A program made the position numbers and the translations under genes. Below are positions 1,219-20,366 of a stretch of 21,132 nucleotides of DNA, in pieces (the first letter of the stretch is position 1; each line of letters starts with the position of its first letter). A model generated the notes under the pieces. That model did not search any database. It was not told the origin of the DNA and was given only the letters and a program-made list of their open reading frames with translations. Source of the stretch: Paraspadella gotoi (lineage: Eukaryota > Animalia > Chaetognatha); NCBI GenBank assembly GCA_051294375.1, contig JBJCIZ010001437.1:1-21132 (forward strand), in the 5' to 3' direction.

Positions 1219-1309
1219 CAATTTATATACGACCTAACTAAAAATTTATCTAAAATTCCGATAATTATGTATAGAAAGAAGCCGAGATTCTTAAGAAGAA
1301 ATATTCGTT

Positions 1310-1378
1310 GAGCCGTGGCGCAATGTAGCGCGTCTGACTCCAGTTCAGAAGGTTGCGTGTTCGAATCACGTCGTGTCA
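1310..1378 (+). tRNA. trnW: tRNA-Trp(CCA), copy 1 (imperfect acceptor stem; pseudogene or consensus errors)
   Basis: TGGCGCAATGTAGCGCG D-arm/A-box, TCTGA-CTCCAGT-TCAGA anticodon arm, GCGTG-TTCGAAT-CACGT T-arm. Core closely matches the animal tRNA-Trp consensus; acceptor strands are mismatched and one D-loop G is missing. Confidence 0.75.
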
Positions 1379-1455
1379 ATGATTTAAGTTTACTTTAGCT
1401 TTTATTAATTATATGCTGCTTTTTTCTTATCAAAAATTTTTTATAGTTTTTACGT

Positions 1456-1527
1456 GGGCTTGTGGCGCAACGGTAGCGCGTCTGACTCCAGATCAGAAGG
1501 TTGTGTGTTCAAATCACACCGGCCTCA
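1456..1527 (+). tRNA. trnW: tRNA-Trp(CCA), copy 2
   Basis: 72 nt GGGCTTG TGGCGCAACGGTAGCGCG TCTGA CTCCAGA TCAGA AGGTT GTGTG TTCAAAT CACAC CGGCCTC A. Canonical length, CCA anticodon, followed by a T-run Pol III terminator. Acceptor stem is weak (G-U pairs and one C-C mismatch). Confidence 0.92.
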
Positions 1528-1662
1528 TGTTTTTAAAATTCATTCCCTCCCATCTTAAATGCAACGAAAAAGAAGAAAATATAAAAGATATCTATTTTAA
1601 TTCCATATCTTTCGACTACTAAAAAGATGAATAGATGATTGTCTTCTTAGATCATAGAACGC

Positions 1663-1731
1663 GAGCCCGTGGCCAACGGATAGCGCGTCTGACTCAGTTC
1701 AGAAGTTGCGTGTCGAATCACGTCGGGCTCA
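1663..1731 (+). tRNA. trnW: tRNA-Trp-type gene, copy 3 (several single-base indels)
   Basis: Perfect acceptor stem GAGCCCG/CGGGCTC, TCTGA/TCAGA anticodon stem with a 6-nt loop CTCAGT, T-loop missing one T; T11 terminator at 1743-1753. Confidence 0.7.
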
Positions 1732-4559: not shown

Positions 4560-5740
4560 CTAACAACAGAAGAAACGACAGCAGCGGAGGCAGGAACAGT
4601 AATGAGAACAGCAGCGGCAGCAGCAAAAATAACACCACGACTCAGTCAAACCGGCTCCAAAACTTCCGGCGTCATTAAAAACGCAACCCCCAAAATCACA
4701 GCCTCAAAGAGTTCTCTGGCGCTCCGGCGCTCTTTCTTTCACAAACCGGCGTCGTTTCCATTCACCGGCGGCGGCGTCGGCCTCCGGCGCAACTCCTCTG
4801 ATCCTTTCGTCGGCCAGAAAGTTGATGGATAGAATTCGACCGACGATTCGGAAGATGGAAACCGTCTCGGCTTTGACGGTTCAAATGCGACGGAGCAATT
4901 GAGGTCGACAACGTGGAGTGTCGGAAAAGTCGAAGAGAAAGTCTCGTCTCTGGAGCCTTTCGGGATCGCGGGAGCTGGTCGGGGTGTCAAGACAGCGGAG
5001 TTTGGGGGTGGCTGGAGAGCCGGGGGCTGCGGCTGTGGGCAGCGGCGGCTGCGGCGGGGCCAGTGGCGATGTCGACCAAGACGTCGAGGGATTCTCCCGT
5101 ACCTCGATCTCAAGAAGCCGAAGTCTAAAGGATCGATTTCATTTTCGTTCCAACCGCTCCAAAGATCGCTTCCTAGAGGAAGACGGACCGCTGCCAAGAT
5201 AAGAGGAATGACCGCTCCAATGATCGATTCCTAGAGAAACCGACCGCTGCCAAGATAAGGGAAATGACCGCTCCAATGATCGCTTCCAAGAGAAGACTGA
5301 CCACTGCCAAGATAAGGGGAATGACCGCTCCATGATCGCTTCCAAGAGAAGACCCGACCGCTGCAAGATAAGAGGATGGACCGCTCCAATGATCGCTTCC
5401 AAGAGAAGACCGACCGCTGCAAGATAAGAGGAATGACCGCTCAAAAGTGAGGAATCACTCCAGCGGATTCAATTTTAGACTCGAAGGGAGAACCTTTCTT
5501 CGATGAGAGAGCTTTATCGATGCCAGAGCGTCGTGACGTCGTTGACATTGTCGTTGCCATCTTCGCCGTCCGCCGTCGTTGCCATCTTTCGCCGTCACAG
5601 TCGTTTGCCATCGCCGTCGTTGCTATTTCGTCGTTGTCATCGTCGTCATCAAAGTCGGAAAGACTCGTCGGCGCCGACGGAAATCTCGGCCAATTTATAT
5701 TTTCGGTCGGAATTAGACAGGAAAATTTTTACCGGGTGAG
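4560..5740 (-). CDS. Hypothetical low-complexity protein (acidic D/N tract, 19-aa repeats, Pro/Ser-rich region, Cys-rich C-terminus); frameshifted
   Basis: Continuous GC-rich island reading SDFDDDDDNDE...HSSYLGSGRSSLGSDHWSG repeats...PQPQPPALQPPP...WCYFCCCRCCSHYCSCLRCCRFFCC* (TAG at 4562-4560). Convergent with the RhoGAP gene. Frame and start are uncertain. Confidence 0.45.
5153..5442. repeat. 57-bp tandem minisatellite, ~5 copies
   Basis: Consensus accgctccaatg-atcgcttccaagagaagaccg-accgctgccaagataagaggaatg, with contiguous copies and no spacers. Confidence 0.95.
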
Positions 5741-15260: not shown

Positions 15261-16489
15261 ACTTTCCAAAACTTCGCAACCCCTCAAAACTCCTTTCTAG
15301 AATGTCGTTTCCTACGAGGAACCAAGACAGACGACGTTGTCGACGCGACTGACGCATCTCTAAGAATCTTCCGCCGCTGCGAATCGCATCGTGGGAGACC
15401 CTGGAAGGCAGAGGTTGACCTTGGAGGCGGGACCAGCTTGGCGAGGGCGGGAGGCGGCGGGGCGCGTGGCGGTACGGCGCGCGGAACGAGATTACTCGGC
15501 GGAGGCTTTGATGATTTATTGATTTGATTGATTTCTTAGATTGATTTTTAATTGTGTATTGATGAATAATGATTGAAAAATTAATAATTGGGGTTTATTT
15601 TAATTGTTTATTGATTATTATATGATATACTTTATTTATCGATAATGACTGTTACTCATTGTGTCATCTCAATAGAGTGGATTGTTCACGACAGGTCTTT
15701 AATTTGCCTCACTTTTAATAATTAATTATTTTCGTCGTTTGATGATAGGGACTAATTCAATTTAGTACATATATATATACATAACAATTACAATACATAA
15801 TTACAATTACCCGTGTCATCCTTCACGATTTCCTTTTGTTTTTTCGACTTTTGTCTTTCGCTGTCTTTTGGCAAAAGTCTCACTCGAGGAGCAGTTGAGT
15901 TGACTGAAAATTACAAACGAAGTTGCGTCCCATCGTAAAAATTATTACAGCATATAACGATTTGACCTTTTTCTTTAAGAAAGTTTCGCAAAATAACTAT
16001 TTGTCGATGGAATATCGGAAGCAAGAATGGAAATCGGGATGCTTTCGTCTCGGATGAAATCAATTGATAATAAAAAAAGATGAAATGACTGTAAAATTGT
16101 TTTTGGTTCACAAATAGATACGAATGGATTTCGAATTTTAGATTGTGGTTTAGAGGAAATTAGAATAAAACTTTAAGAAGAATATAGAATGAATTTCCTA
16201 GATAATAAATTACCTAGTTAAATAATAAAAAAAAAAATCAATAAAAAACAAAACAAAACAAAAGTCAACAAATGAATCAATCCAACGAAATAACCCACCT
16301 GGCGGTGAGTTTGTTTCGCATTCTGAGTTCGTACCACCTGTGACGTCACTCAAACGCCTCGGACGCAAAACGGCAAAACGACGCCGCGGTCTCTTCTTCG
16401 GCGCCGAGACACGATTCCACGGAACGAGCGGCGGCCGCAGTGGACGGAGCGCCCGTCGAATCGGCTACGCGGAAGCGACGTAGATACAT
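14950..16489 (-). CDS. Hypothetical multi-exon gene (exons ~16489-16299, ~16070-15884, 15505-15263, 15155-~14950); weak SGNH/GDSL-hydrolase-like motifs
   Basis: Minus-strand donors ccag|gtggg (16298), cga|gtgag and aaa|gtgag (15262). Peptide pieces KVNLCLPG...VDNVVCL..VGNDIL join only after frame correction. Confidence 0.3.
15163..15260. repeat. (CT)n microsatellite
   Basis: Read directly. Confidence 0.95.
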
Positions 16490-17367
16490 TCGGGGCGCCG
16501 CAAGCTTTTATGAAAACTAAGCCAAATACCGCAGTCTCAAATGCAATATTTTATATTAAAGTAGTTAGTTATAAAACCAAGTTTTTTATTCGGTAGACAT
16601 AACAGCAGTTTTAAAGGAGACCATTCTTTTCTCGCAAAGAAATCCTTGGCGGACAAAGACAAACAAATCGAACTCTGCCATTCGCGTAAACAAAGGAACA
16701 GTTTTTGTTCTACCTTATTGAATCATATTTAAAAAATGAAGATTAAAACCATCAAGCACAAGTTTGGTAAAAATCTATATTATTTAAAATTACTCAGAAA
16801 TGTAAATTACAAAAGTCTATATGATTGTCCTCATAGCTTTGTTGCCTGCTCTTGCCCCCTTCATCAAAAAAAATTCCTTAAGACACTCATCTAAAAGCCT
16901 TTTATTCAAGTTAATTGGAATTCAATGATAATTACTAAGTAAGTCCAAATTAATGGACGGTTAAAGTCTCGGATCCACTCCTCCCTATAACTAAATATAA
17001 AACGATTCAGTATATATATATTCAGTTAATCATATTCCATTTGGCGCTGTTCATGGAGCTGATTGATCGTGGCCCGCAGGTCCAGCCCACAATACCCCGT
17101 CCTGCTATAGTGGTGCATCGGCTGGTTGTGAAGATAATCTATTTTGTGTTTATTTTTGACTTATGCGTACATTGTATTTTAAAAATTAAAAACAAATTTT
17201 TACTTGTATATACATTATTTAACAATTCCCAACTTTAATTTACATTCCAAAAATCACTGTACAAAAAAGTTTTCAATATTAAGGAAAAATACAAGCATTG
17301 TAACAAAAAAAAAATCATTGTCCGACAACGATATTCTTCATCAGCCGCGCCACCCGATCCTCAGCCC

Positions 17368-19769
17368 TCATCTGATCTTCGCCATGATCGCTTTCACGCG
17401 CCAGGGACTCGGACACGTGTTGGGCACGTGTTCGGGCAAAGAAGGGCGATGGCGCGAATCTCGAGGGATTCTCGAAGCGGAGCCGTCGACGGGTGCTTTA
17501 GGTCTTCACAAGGGAATTGTGCGAAAGGGCGAAGTCGAGGCCGGTTGTTGAGGACAGAGTCATACTGTTTGAAGAGTATTATCTATAAAAAATTAGTTTT
17601 GGAATTATTCAGAAAATAAAATTTGTTTGCTTAATTTTTTTTTCCAGCTTTTTTACTGATTTTAAAATTTTTAGAATAAATCACTAAAACTTATGAACTT
17701 AATCTTGCAGAAAAAAATAAAAGAATTTAGTTGATTAAATTGCCTTCACTGACCTCATCCGTCCTCAATTCAGGGAATAAATTACCACTTATTGACGGTT
17801 GTTATTTTTTCCAGAAAGCGCAAAATTTTCTGCCATAACAACTTAATAAAAACTTCATCTATTCTCATTTCATAACCGAAAAAATTCGCTGAGACATAGT
17901 CCTGTAATAAAAATATAAATCCTAAAATTTCAACTAAAATGTCAATAAAAAAAAATTTATCTTTTTTTATTATTTTGGAAATTAAATCAGCAATTTCAAA
18001 AAAAGGTAATTAAAATTAGTACAACCAATATAAAACTATTCATTCATTTCATAAACAAGGTATTTTGCCCCTGACTTTGTAAATAATATTTTCTTGTAAT
18101 ATAACAAGGAGATACTTACTTCTGATCCGATTCCCGGGGACAAAGACTTGAAATCCAATAAACACAAATGATGATTCACAATTGGTTCGTCGCTGATGTT
18201 CCTCCAAGAGTTGATGAAGACGAATCTTCCGCGCCTGAATCGAGCATCGAGTCCGCGGAGACTTGAAGCGAAAAATGCCTCAGCGGTTTCTGGTGTCGTG
18301 TCGCAGTGGATTCGGGAGGAAAATTCTATAAAATATATATATAAAACAATATAAATTAAAAAAAAATGTTTGAATCACTTTCATAAAAATAAATATTAAC
18401 CAATCACAAAGCAAAACAAAAAATCTTAAAAGGATAAGGATGGTCGCAATCGCATAAAAAAATCTGGACCCACTACAAACTTTGATTCTCAAAAAAGCAA
18501 ATTTGATATAAGAAAACACAATTTTAAACATAATCTTGGCTTTATACATAAAAAACAATATTAGCTTAGAAGTAAAAAACAAAAGAAATATCTAATAACA
18601 GATGAACAAACATGGACAAAAATATTTAAAAATATAAAACTGAAAAAGAACAAAAAAAGAAAAAAAAGAAAAAACTAAACAAAATAAAAAATAGAATGGA
18701 AAAAGAATGAAAGTACTAGGAAATATAAAATAAATTTAAAAAAAATATTAAAAAGTAATAACGATTTGCCACACATAAGAAATAATAAATGAAATAAAAC
18801 AAACATGTAGAGAACCAAAAAAAGAAAAGAAAGAAAACGTAAGAGCTGAAAAAGAAAATAAGAATAAAAAAATGAAATGAATGAATAAAATAAAATAAAA
18901 TGATTTGAATTAAATGAATTTATTGAAATGAATTAGATAAAATGAATTGAATGAATGAAATAAATTGACAGAATGAATTAAATTTAAAATATATAAATGG
19001 CCTTAATTTGGCCATACTTTCTATAAATGTCCATTGAGATTCGATTTCAAGTGACTTATTCTTATTTTCTTACCTCCATCGTCAATAGGATTAATGACTT
19101 GGCTCACTCTTCCGTTTCTGATTTGGTGATTTAAACAAGTCACGATCTCAGCGCCCGTCAATCTTTTGATACAATCTTCCGTCTCTTTGTAATAAACGTC
19201 GATGATTTTCTGGTGATTGGAACGAAATTCATTTGTGGTCAACGAAGTTTCACATTTGACGAGTTGAAAAGATTCGTTGTCGATTGTGAGGTCAAGATCT
19301 CTGCCGTCGCGAATCGTGACTTCCTACGATGGAGAAAAGAGTTTATCGATATTATTAATATTATTAATATCATAATGATTATTATTATCTAAAATCGTCC
19401 TCATAAACAATTCACAATTCATAAGAGTAGGTATTCTACCACTTGAAAACTGAAGAAACTAGGTATGTTTTTAACTCCTAAACTTATAAGAGGGATTGAG
19501 GCTTAAACTCGCCATAGTCGGGAGATCGATAGCTTATTCATTAAATAAATGGATAATTTTATATTGGTTTATCAATTTCGTATTGTTTTAGTAATTACTA
19601 ATTAGGGGGCTTTAACGAAAATTAAAAATGTCACCACCCGATTTAAACATACCTTGATCACGTTTTTCCCTCCCTTCACCGATTCGCCCTCTCCTCTCGA
19701 GAATCCATAGAGGTAAGGTTTAGGTCCGTTCGGATCCACATAACTCATTTTCGCTTTCACGTCCGTCAT
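17368..19769 (-). CDS. CmcJ/NvfI/AsaB-like (GA4-desaturase-like) Fe(II)/2-oxoglutarate-dependent oxygenase; 5 exons: 19769-19653, 19323-19074, 18325-18120, 17901-17754, 17582-17368
   Basis: Exons 1-3 splice at GT-AG in compatible phases (0, 1, 0) into 191 open codons: MTDVKAKMSYVDPNGPKPYLY...|EVTIRDGRDLDLTIDNESFQLVKCETSL...YYKETEDCIKRLTGAEIVTCLNHQIR...|SRIHCDTT...GRFVFINSWRNISDEPIVNHHLCLLDFKS. Exons 4-5 give (H)KW(Y)LFPELRTDE|IILFKQYDS...(HNS)...APLRESLEIRAIA. All family blocks are present, including the HxD iron motif and RxSxExR. Exons 4-5 contain apparent insertions (errors or decay). Confidence 0.88.
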
Positions 19770-19986
19770 CTTGTTTTTATCGCGACGAAGAAAAAATTTT
19801 GGTCTTTTTACTAATAAGTTATAAAAGCGATTGTTCTTTTTTTACAGAATAATTTTTTTTACGTTTATGCCCATAAGAAGCAGAAAAAAAACTCTCACAC
19901 TATTTTACCATAATAATTAATAAGTAAACTACACATAATTTTTTTTTCTTTTACTATTCGATTAACGCTTATAGAATGTTGAAACC

Positions 19987-20053
19987 ATTTATTAAAATCG
20001 GCTCAAAACATGATCAACTAAAATTTATTAAAATCGGCTCAAAACATGATCAA
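19987..20053. repeat. Exact 31-bp direct duplication upstream of the oxygenase gene
   Basis: atttattaaaatcggctcaaaacatgatcaa at 19987-20017 and 20023-20053. Confidence 0.92.
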
Positions 20054-20366
20054 TATCTTTGGTCCTGAGGAAAAGAAACGGATTATTGTAAACAATACAA
20101 AAATGTTTTGTCTTTCATTAATTACATCGGAGGTTCATGTTTCGAGATGAGTAAAATTCCTTTAAACTAAAACTAGGTGAAGAGGTGCGTATATGTGCAG
20201 TGCACATTGTGCGCATATAACTTGGATGAACATTTTATTTTTATTATCTGCGTCGAAAAACCGAACTTCACCCATCGAGAGATAATATCTTTGTCTGTAA
20301 ACATTTGGTCGCGAAATAAAAACCTAATTAGCCGAAAGAAGGGTGAAATTCAGGCCATCCAAGAAA

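What the first reader, a model, noticed from the sequence alone, without database searches (positions are those of the whole stretch)
17368..19769. Intron-containing microbial-type secondary-metabolism oxygenase (CmcJ/NvfI/AsaB family) in an animal-like genome: horizontal transfer candidate
Seen: a five-exon gene with the full motif series of this family (VTIRDGR, YYxE...TGA...HxxR, HCD, RFxxINxWRxI, W..FPE...EIILFKQYDS, RESLEIR). Known: characterised members act in cephamycin 7-alpha-methoxylation (CmcJ, actinobacteria), novofumigatonin endoperoxidation (NvfI), aspergillic-acid modification (AsaB) and gibberellin desaturation (Fusarium GA4 desaturase), and the family is not part of the standard animal gene set. 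Linkage to metazoan-type tRNA-Trp and RhoGAP genes plus four spliceosomal introns argues against bacterial contamination. Its flanks also do not follow the skew polarity seen elsewhere. Inference: an acquired, domesticated enzyme for natural-product synthesis or detoxification; substrate unknown and no neighbouring pathway genes are visible.
Basis: partly seen in the sequence, partly recalled or inferred. Interest (0 to 1): 0.8.

Follow-up and report, generated by a model that had tools for sequence, protein, structure and literature searches.

The report
Marine-plankton-type oxygenase in an animal
A spliced five-exon gene in what is likely an invertebrate animal encodes an iron/2-oxoglutarate oxygenase related to fungal natural-product enzymes, but its nearest kin are an unstudied group from marine algae, protists and choanoflagellates rather than bacteria, so it was likely gained long ago from a microbial eukaryote or kept from the ancestor of animals, and it likely oxidises a small greasy molecule that is still unknown.

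Summary
The gene is real. Three exons hit NF041278 (CmcJ/NvfI) in order. Contigs from two public studies skip all four GT-AG introns exactly. These are insertion errors: transcripts give an in-frame exon 4, and the read-corrected protein (about 303 aa) keeps the HxD...H iron triad and RxS motif. No chimera at 16.4-17.3 kb. A second, diverged copy exists in the same organism. The origin story needs changing. The protein nests (100/99) in an unstudied eukaryotic subfamily with choanoflagellate, dinoflagellate, green-algal, ochrophyte and fungus-like members (38-41% identity; GTDB prokaryotes 23-29%). Grouping with bacteria is rejected (AU p=0.0007); grouping with choanoflagellates is not (p=0.29). 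Its closest relatives are unnamed transcripts encoding predicted ER-anchored proteins; this copy is predicted to be soluble. Best reading: an old transfer from a marine microbial eukaryote (about 0.5), against vertical retention (about 0.35). cmcJ genes in animals (springtails) are already published. Substrate unknown. New member of a known kind; interest modest.

The parts
19770..20008 (-). 5' untranslated part of exon 1 (no upstream in-frame ATG, no signal peptide)
   Evidence: X5 contig covers 19652-20008 with 0 differences; frame open only from a stop near 19842
19653..19769 (-). exon 1 coding part, ATG at 19769, 39 codons
   Evidence: 0 differences in X5, X6
19324..19652 (-). intron 1, 329 nt, GT..AG, phase 0; holds an abundant repeat near 19528-19569
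   Evidence: skipped exactly in X5 and X6; present in X1 and X3 contigs
19074..19323 (-). exon 2 (VTIRDGR, YYxE, HxxR motifs)
   Evidence: NF041278 E 8.5e-11; 0 differences in X5, X6
18326..19073 (-). intron 2, 748 nt, GT..AG, phase 1, A-rich; abundant repeat near 18418-18462
18120..18325 (-). exon 3; HxD iron ligands at 18308-18306 and 18302-18300; three-residue insertion shared with the sister group at its end
   Evidence: NF041278 E 1.2e-8; aligns to NvfI HCD; alignment
17902..18119 (-). intron 3, 218 nt, GT..AG, phase 0; abundant repeat near 18013-18079
17754..17901 (-). exon 4: 148 nt and frameshifted in the window, 135 nt (45 codons) in transcripts
   Evidence: 13 gaps and 2 other letters in X5 and X6; 13 gaps also in X1, X3
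17583..17753 (-). intron 4, 171 nt in the window, GT..AG, phase 0
17368..17582 (-). exon 5 coding part, frameshifted in the window; third iron ligand His at 17521-17519, RxS Arg at 17474-17472, stop at 17370-17368
   Evidence: NF041278 E 1.3e-5; frame restored by the read differences
17032..17367 (-). 3' untranslated region (to at least 17287 in X5, 17032 in X6)
15274..17885 (.). error-rich stretch of the assembly (roughly 3-11 gaps per 100 letters against the longer public contigs); the long pieces to its right match with 0 differences
   Evidence: table 8

Best explanation
This is an intact, spliced nuclear gene for a predicted soluble Fe(II)/2-oxoglutarate dioxygenase of the CmcJ/NvfI family, from an unstudied subfamily of marine eukaryotes, likely gained long ago from a microbial eukaryote (alga or protist) by an ancestor of the likely animal host, and likely hydroxylating or desaturating a small hydrophobic molecule. 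Shown: exon structure, splicing, family membership, catalytic motifs, a second diverged copy, placement inside the eukaryotic subfamily and away from bacteria. Inferred: Fe(II) held by His-x-Asp (exon 3) and His (exon 5), 2-oxoglutarate held by the RxS motif, O2 splitting to an Fe(IV)=O species that abstracts a hydrogen from the substrate (general chemistry of the superfamily, recalled). Ordinary hydroxylation or desaturation is more likely than NvfI-type endoperoxide formation, because the residue after the Asp is Thr where NvfI has His138, whose loss diverted NvfI's reaction (PMC8292354, passage). A hydrophobic substrate is a guess from relatives: 39 of 90 subfamily members carry a hydrophobic tail and some are fused to a lipase-type hydrolase. 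The gene lacks both the signal peptide and the membrane anchor of its sister group, so it would act in the cytosol. Parts of the confidence: real intact host gene about 0.93; active Fe/2OG oxygenase about 0.9; origin by transfer from a microbial eukaryote about 0.5.
For: Splicing in two studies with exons 1-3 identical. In-frame exon 4 of the same 45-codon length as the matching stretch of P0030. Corrected protein scores 308.6 bits on the subfamily profile. The AlphaFold model of stand-in P0120 (pLDDT 87.8) matches NvfI (E 2e-21, TM 0.84 by target) and CTB9. Subfamily clade 100/99. Bacterial grouping rejected, p=0.0007. For transfer rather than descent: 0 of 97 profile hits carries an animal name, though only 5 name an organism; the subfamily tree does not follow the species tree (named choanoflagellates apart, a fungus-like gene nested inside). 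Introns hold repeats that are abundant in the host runs, and exon CpG o/e (1.43) resembles the window's other GC-rich islands (1.31-1.57), as expected of a long-resident gene.
Against: A clade with choanoflagellates is not rejected (p=0.29), so descent with losses fits too. The sister group (86/96 in the careful tree, not starred; 97 in the two faster trees) is unnamed and may itself be animal. The window protein has a long end branch (0.96). I did not show the host is an animal: that rests on gene architecture and on unchecked earlier notes. No substrate evidence and no pathway neighbours were found. 23 residues of exon 4 and one in exon 5 were entered as X.
Confidence: 0.5

Rival explanations
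1. Same enzyme, but inherited vertically from the common ancestor of animals and choanoflagellates (or an early animal) and lost in most animal lineages; no transfer into this host's line.
For: Monosiga (P0136) and Didymoeca (P0164) carry the subfamily. AU test does not reject window + sister group + choanoflagellates, p=0.29. The 53-row quick tree puts them in one weak group (85). The unnamed sister transcripts could be animal zooplankton.
Against: No animal-named hit among 34 and 97 proteins. The grouping with choanoflagellates is absent from the careful tree. Many independent losses would be needed.
Confidence: 0.35
2. One reading: transfer from a bacterium or from a fungal secondary-metabolite cluster, then intron gain.
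For: All characterised relatives found are fungal (NvfI, CTB9). Springtail cmcJ shows that such transfers into animals occur (PMC5490193, passage). One fungus-like contig (L020) holds a subfamily member.
Against: GTDB hits are 23-29% identical to the window protein against 38-41% for the best subfamily members. Bacterial grouping is rejected. The fungus-like member does not group with the window protein. NvfI and CTB9 are about 20% identical to the stand-in. The GTDB scan was pattern-limited, and no named classical fungal sequence was in the tree.
Confidence: 0.06
3. The gene belongs to another eukaryote (prey, parasite or symbiont) co-sequenced with the host, or the host is not an animal.
For: Closest relatives are unnamed, mostly short environmental or assembly contigs. 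Linkage to the tRNA and RhoGAP-like region left of 15270 was not tested. Exon GC (45%) is below that of the other islands measured (51-67%).
Against: 9 listed runs in 3 studies, all labelled organism A, hold the stretch or part of it. Exons 1-3 are identical in two studies. Dozens of contigs pile on the intron repeats in X1 and X3, at depths in the thousands against 12-21 (X1) for exact-match pieces. One contig bridges 16399-17301 and reaches the next gene.
Confidence: 0.06
4. The locus is a decaying pseudogene (frameshifts and stops in exons 4-5).
For: The window sequence itself is broken.
Against: All four runs laid lack the extra letters where they cover the place; the gaps run on at a similar rate through non-coding DNA from 15274 to 17885; the transcript exon 4 is in frame and the corrected exon 5 gives the full conserved tail.
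Confidence: 0.03

Closest known systems
NvfI, novofumigatonin endoperoxidase (PDB 7de2, 7emz, 7enb; PMC8292354, passages and section 8 read)
   Same: Same fold in the stand-in model (Foldseek E 2e-21), HCD plus distal His triad, Arg equivalent to NvfI Arg118, RESxxxR strand
   Different: About 20% identity to the stand-in; Thr in place of His138; subfamily-specific C-terminal NTCP motif; no biosynthetic cluster; found in a likely animal
CTB9, cercosporin-pathway 2OG dioxygenase (PDB 7eus, 7eut, 7euu; entry titles only)
   Same: Second-best fold match (E 2e-20) and sequence hit of relative P0002 (E 8.5e-17)
   Different: About 21% identity to the stand-in; fungal cluster enzyme with a known substrate
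CmcJ of cephamycin clusters and its springtail orthologues (PMC5490193, PMC13617353, passages read)
   Same: Same NCBIfam family; precedent for the family in animal genomes
   Different: Springtail genes sit with beta-lactam genes (ACVS, IPNS, cmcI); none is seen here. Springtail sequences were not in my trees, so their relation to this subfamily is untested
Unnamed marine-eukaryote subfamily (Monosiga MONBRDRAFT_4795, Didymoeca, Scrippsiella, Pterosperma, Chrysoparadoxa; sister group P0030, P0116-P0121)
   Same: 32-41% identity by BLAST, shared FKQxDS, CFH, RxSxExR and NTCP motifs; three-residue insertion shared with the sister group only among the 14 rows aligned
   Different: The window protein has no signal peptide and no membrane tail, whereas 7 of 7 sister proteins examined have hydrophobic segments at both ends and Lys at position -3
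Ctenophore 2OG-Fe(II) oxygenases ML005129a and ML012034a (PMC6005172, Table 3 passage)
   Same: 2OG oxygenases reported as transferred from non-animal eukaryotes into a marine animal
   Different: Listed under the Pfam 2OG-Fe(II) superfamily; not shown to be of the NF041278 family; not compared here

Membership tests
CmcJ/NvfI/EfuI oxidoreductases (NF041278; PF27522) | Match to the family profile above the curated cut-off (80 bits) | tested here: met
   Three exons score 41.9, 34.8 and 24.9 bits on non-overlapping profile parts (sum 101.6, a rough figure; the joined protein was not scanned); closest full-length relative P0030 scores 204
CmcJ/NvfI/EfuI oxidoreductases (NF041278; PF27522) | His-x-Asp ... 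His iron triad | tested here: met
   HCD in exon 3 aligns with NvfI; the distal His is in frame after the read-supported correction
CmcJ/NvfI/EfuI oxidoreductases (NF041278; PF27522) | RxS 2-oxoglutarate-binding motif on the last strands (role recalled) | tested here: met
   RES present; Arg and Ser invariant in alignment A2
CmcJ/NvfI/EfuI oxidoreductases (NF041278; PF27522) | NvfI/CTB9-type double-stranded beta-helix fold | tested here: met
   Only on stand-in P0120 (41% identical to the window protein):
CmcJ/NvfI/EfuI oxidoreductases (NF041278; PF27522) | Fe(II)- and 2OG-dependent oxidation of a small molecule | not testable with these tools
   Needs recombinant enzyme
NvfI-type endoperoxidase | His138 next to the iron-binding Asp, substrate asnovolin A, nvf cluster | tested here: not met
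   Thr at that place; no cluster genes recognised among the window frames scanned
Springtail-type beta-lactam cluster cmcJ | Neighbouring ACVS, IPNS and cmcI genes | tested here: not met
   No such Pfam hits in the window frames scanned; frameshifts lower the sensitivity and the rest of the genome was not available
Horizontally acquired gene, prokaryotic donor | Nests among prokaryotic homologues | tested here: not met
   AU p=0.0007; 23-29% identity
Horizontally acquired gene, eukaryotic donor | Nests with support inside a non-animal eukaryote clade, vertical tree rejected | tested here: inconclusive
   Inside the eukaryotic subfamily 100/99, inner branches unresolved; choanoflagellate clade not rejected
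Horizontally acquired gene, either donor | Physically integrated in the host genome, with introns and expression | tested here: met
   linkage tested only from 15270 to 20200

The most novel reading that the evidence does not exclude
An arrow-worm-like marine predator took an oxygenase from plankton eukaryotes, from a subfamily that moves between marine lineages and has no characterised member, duplicated it, freed it from the ER membrane, and uses it together with other algal-type genes noted elsewhere in this genome (a type III polyketide synthase) to make or detoxify its own small molecules. The animal gene would then be the handle for finding the reaction of the whole marine subfamily.
Probability: 0.2. 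Interest if true: 0.65.

Novelty: new member of a known kind. Interest (0 to 1): 0.36.

Why it matters
The family is known from bacterial and fungal natural-product pathways, and in animals from springtail beta-lactam clusters. This gene points instead to a large marine-eukaryote branch (90 full-length members gathered here) for which my searches found no paper. If it came from a microbial eukaryote, it adds a case of eukaryote-to-animal transfer of oxidative chemistry, like those listed for comb jellies. If it is inherited, it marks an enzyme the first animals had and most lost. Either way a predicted soluble 300-residue member is an easy one to express and assay. A practical point: the assembly is error-rich here and an annotation pipeline would call this gene broken.

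Tried and rejected
No whole genome was held, so no paralogue count. The search for homologous proteins with exon 2 alone found nothing (0 of 33 candidates). The Pfam copy held here gave no hit for the exons or for two full-length relatives, although the precomputed PF27522 is listed for them. No RNA holder was on record as RNA; X5 is labelled 'DNA?' by guess, and I read it as RNA because its contig lacks all four introns while X1 and X3 show none of those joints; a processed copy is not strictly excluded. Five viral-contig hits were 27-29% identical to P0120 and the ones placed fell outside the subfamily or on long branches. The careful 53-row tree did not finish in two runs; a 28-row careful tree was used. 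Trees left out partial sequences (94 of 263 profile hits) and near-duplicates: 93, 53 and 28 of 169 full-length rows. PDB searches with two RhoGAP-region frames gave no RhoGAP hit. Neighbouring exons at 8-16.5 kb gave no Pfam hit above its cut-off. The ESM Atlas gave only fungal-dominated clusters, which says nothing on range. A search for the Pfam name YDMC found nothing relevant. The supplements of the metazoan HGT compendium (PMC13342648) could not be read and may list this family. Contig depth was not used as a copy number. The skew argument was rejected.

Full report
Observation. The minus strand holds five exons, 19769-19653, 19323-19074, 18325-18120, 17901-17754 and 17582-17368, with four GT..AG introns of 329, 748, 218 and 171 nt in phases 0, 1, 0, 0. 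Exons 1-3 join into 191 open codons. Exons 2, 3 and 5 each hit NCBIfam NF041278 (CmcJ/NvfI family) with E 8.5e-11, 1.2e-8 and 1.3e-5, at successive profile positions; exon 1 and the start of exon 4 gave no hit. The finding is not chance.

Read as written, exon 4 (148 nt) shifts frame and has stops, and exon 5 shifts frame twice around the third iron ligand. Nine public runs in three studies, all labelled organism A, hold the stretch or part of it; four were laid. A 1277-nt contig of X5 covers 17287-20008 and skips all four introns at exactly these boundaries; X6, another study, shows the same four joints in two contigs; X1 and X3 show none of them and carry the introns. Exons 1-3 have 0 differences in X5 and X6. 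Exon 4 has 13 gaps in all four runs, leaving 135 nt, 45 codons, in frame. Gaps continue at a similar rate through non-coding DNA from 15274 to 17885, while the long pieces to the right match with 0 differences. I read this as an insertion-rich stretch of the assembly. Only 12 gap rows were shown per call, so 23 residues of exon 4 and one of exon 5 were left as X in the 303-residue working protein; the length may be off by one.

Does it belong to the host? An X5 contig spans 16399-17301 in one piece and goes on to 15812-15847, so the suspected chimera at 16.5-17.3 kb is not seen. Its overlap with the gene's own contig is short (17287-17301), but X6 and X1 pieces cross that point. Introns 1-3 carry repeats on which dozens of contigs pile in X1 and X3, at summed depths of thousands against 12-21 for exact-match pieces in X1. 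Exons have CpG o/e 1.43, like the other GC-rich islands measured (1.31-1.57), at somewhat lower GC (45% against 51-67%). A second copy exists: contigs of X5 and X6 match 18196-18321 with 18 differences in 126 and rejoin near 19239, and X1 shows a like joint. Linkage left of 15270 was not tested. The two tRNA-Trp genes are real; the RhoGAP call is weak (E 0.064). I did not show independently that the host is an animal. Earlier notes on other pieces of this genome call it an invertebrate, one 'very likely an arrow worm'; these are unchecked leads.

Relatives. A full HMMER scan with exon 2 gave 101 proteins; word-based searches with P0030 and with a 16-row profile gave 34 of 1321 and 97 of 7441 candidates. 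The best relatives are 38-41% identical to the working protein. Those that name an organism are eukaryotes, Monosiga brevicollis, Didymoeca costata, Scrippsiella, Pterosperma and Chrysoparadoxa, except one distant bacterium. Of the 97, 5 name an organism, none an animal, and 81 have no name. One member sits intronless on a contig whose neighbours look fungal to me (a Myb-like protein and a UGGT-like glucosyltransferase, judged by eye). A pattern scan of GTDB gave 12 loci, 7 near full length, 23-29% identical to the window protein.

Trees. FastTree on 93 rows, a quick IQ-TREE on 53 and a careful IQ-TREE (LG+C20+F+G4) on 28 of the 169 full-length rows agree. The window protein lies inside the eukaryotic subfamily (100/99 in the careful tree) and next to a group of unnamed proteins from short contigs (P0030, P0116-P0121; 97, 97 and 86/96). 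That pairing is backed by a three-residue insertion seen only in them among 14 rows aligned. The AU test rejects a clade with the four prokaryote-type rows (p=0.0007; two named bacteria, two unnamed) and does not reject a clade with the sister group, the two named choanoflagellates and one unnamed EukProt protein that pairs with Monosiga (p=0.29). The inner branches are mostly open, the named choanoflagellates do not form one group, and the window's end branch is long (0.96). No named classical fungal enzyme and no springtail sequence was in the trees.

How it likely works. An AlphaFold model of stand-in P0120 (mean pLDDT 87.8) matches NvfI (E 2e-21) and CTB9 (E 2e-20) at about 20% identity. 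The window's HCD aligns with NvfI's, and the distal His and the RxS motif are invariant in the 16-row alignment. By the known chemistry of this superfamily (recalled), Fe(II), 2-oxoglutarate and O2 would give a ferryl oxidant that abstracts a hydrogen from the substrate. NvfI's His138, which contacts its substrate and whose loss diverts the reaction (PMC8292354, passages), is Thr here, so plain hydroxylation or desaturation is the better bet. All 7 sister proteins examined have a hydrophobic N-terminus, a hydrophobic C-terminal segment and Lys at -3, like an ER-retrieval signal (motif recalled); the window protein has neither segment and starts where their mature domain starts, so it is predicted to be cytosolic. 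Across the subfamily 39 of 90 have a hydrophobic tail and 9 of 90 end within 25 residues of the NTCP motif; several are fused to a lipase-type hydrolase. That hints at a hydrophobic substrate and no more.

Against what is known. cmcJ is reported in the Folsomia beta-lactam cluster (PMC5490193, passage) and across springtails (PMC13617353, passages), so the family in an animal is not new. Two ctenophore 2OG oxygenases are listed as transfers from eukaryotes (PMC6005172, Table 3 passage). In a published chaetognath genome paper the word search found 'oxygenase' 0 times and 'horizontal' twice, neither about this gene (PMC12460157, passages). Searches for CmcJ with NvfI (2 papers), asaB-like (4), cephem-methoxylase with transcriptome (4) and asaB with gene transfer terms showed, in their listings, nothing on the marine subfamily; supplements of the HGT compendium PMC13342648 were not readable and could change this.

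Verdict. Observation confirmed, with a correction for assembly error. Interpretation partly supported: a real, domesticated-looking enzyme gene, but of marine-eukaryote type. Transfer from a microbial eukaryote about 0.5, vertical retention about 0.35, bacterial or fungal donor about 0.06, foreign organism about 0.06, pseudogene about 0.03. New member of a known kind; interest 0.36.

Noticed in passing
window 15274-16554, minus strand: A further gene starts about 500-700 nt downstream on the same strand. X6 loose ends suggest exons near 16300-16550, 15811-15906 and 15274-15506, and an X5 contig runs from 17301 through the spacer into it. No Pfam hit above cut-off. A possible operon-like pair, but a contig across two genes shows no single transcript.
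   Followed up: partly
window 20008: Contigs of X5 and X6 both stop matching at 20008, and the X5 contig has 24 further letters that were not shown. Could be a spliced leader or just the end of the match beside a short direct repeat.
   Followed up: no
window 18196-18321 and near 19239: A second copy of the oxygenase gene, about 86% identical over this stretch, in X5, X6 and X1.
   Followed up: partly
window 1308-1730: Two tRNA-Trp(CCA) genes and a third copy near 1658-1730 seen by eye, with missing letters, probably also assembly error.
   Followed up: no
window 5153-5442: A 56-bp minisatellite, 5.1 copies, 89% matches, at the end of a GC-rich, possibly coding stretch.
   Followed up: no
proteins P0009, P0189, P0190, P0194, P0195, P0200-P0202; P0140: Subfamily members fused to a lipase-type alpha/beta hydrolase, and one more distant member with glutathione-transferase Pfam domains.
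   Followed up: no
L020 2947-4242: An intronless subfamily member between fungus-like genes; it nests among marine protist sequences and may be a separate transfer into a fungus.
   Followed up: partly
proteins P0123 and P0192: Two paralogues, each with a longest contig of 408,117 bases in ENA, probably the same contig of unknown origin.
   Followed up: no
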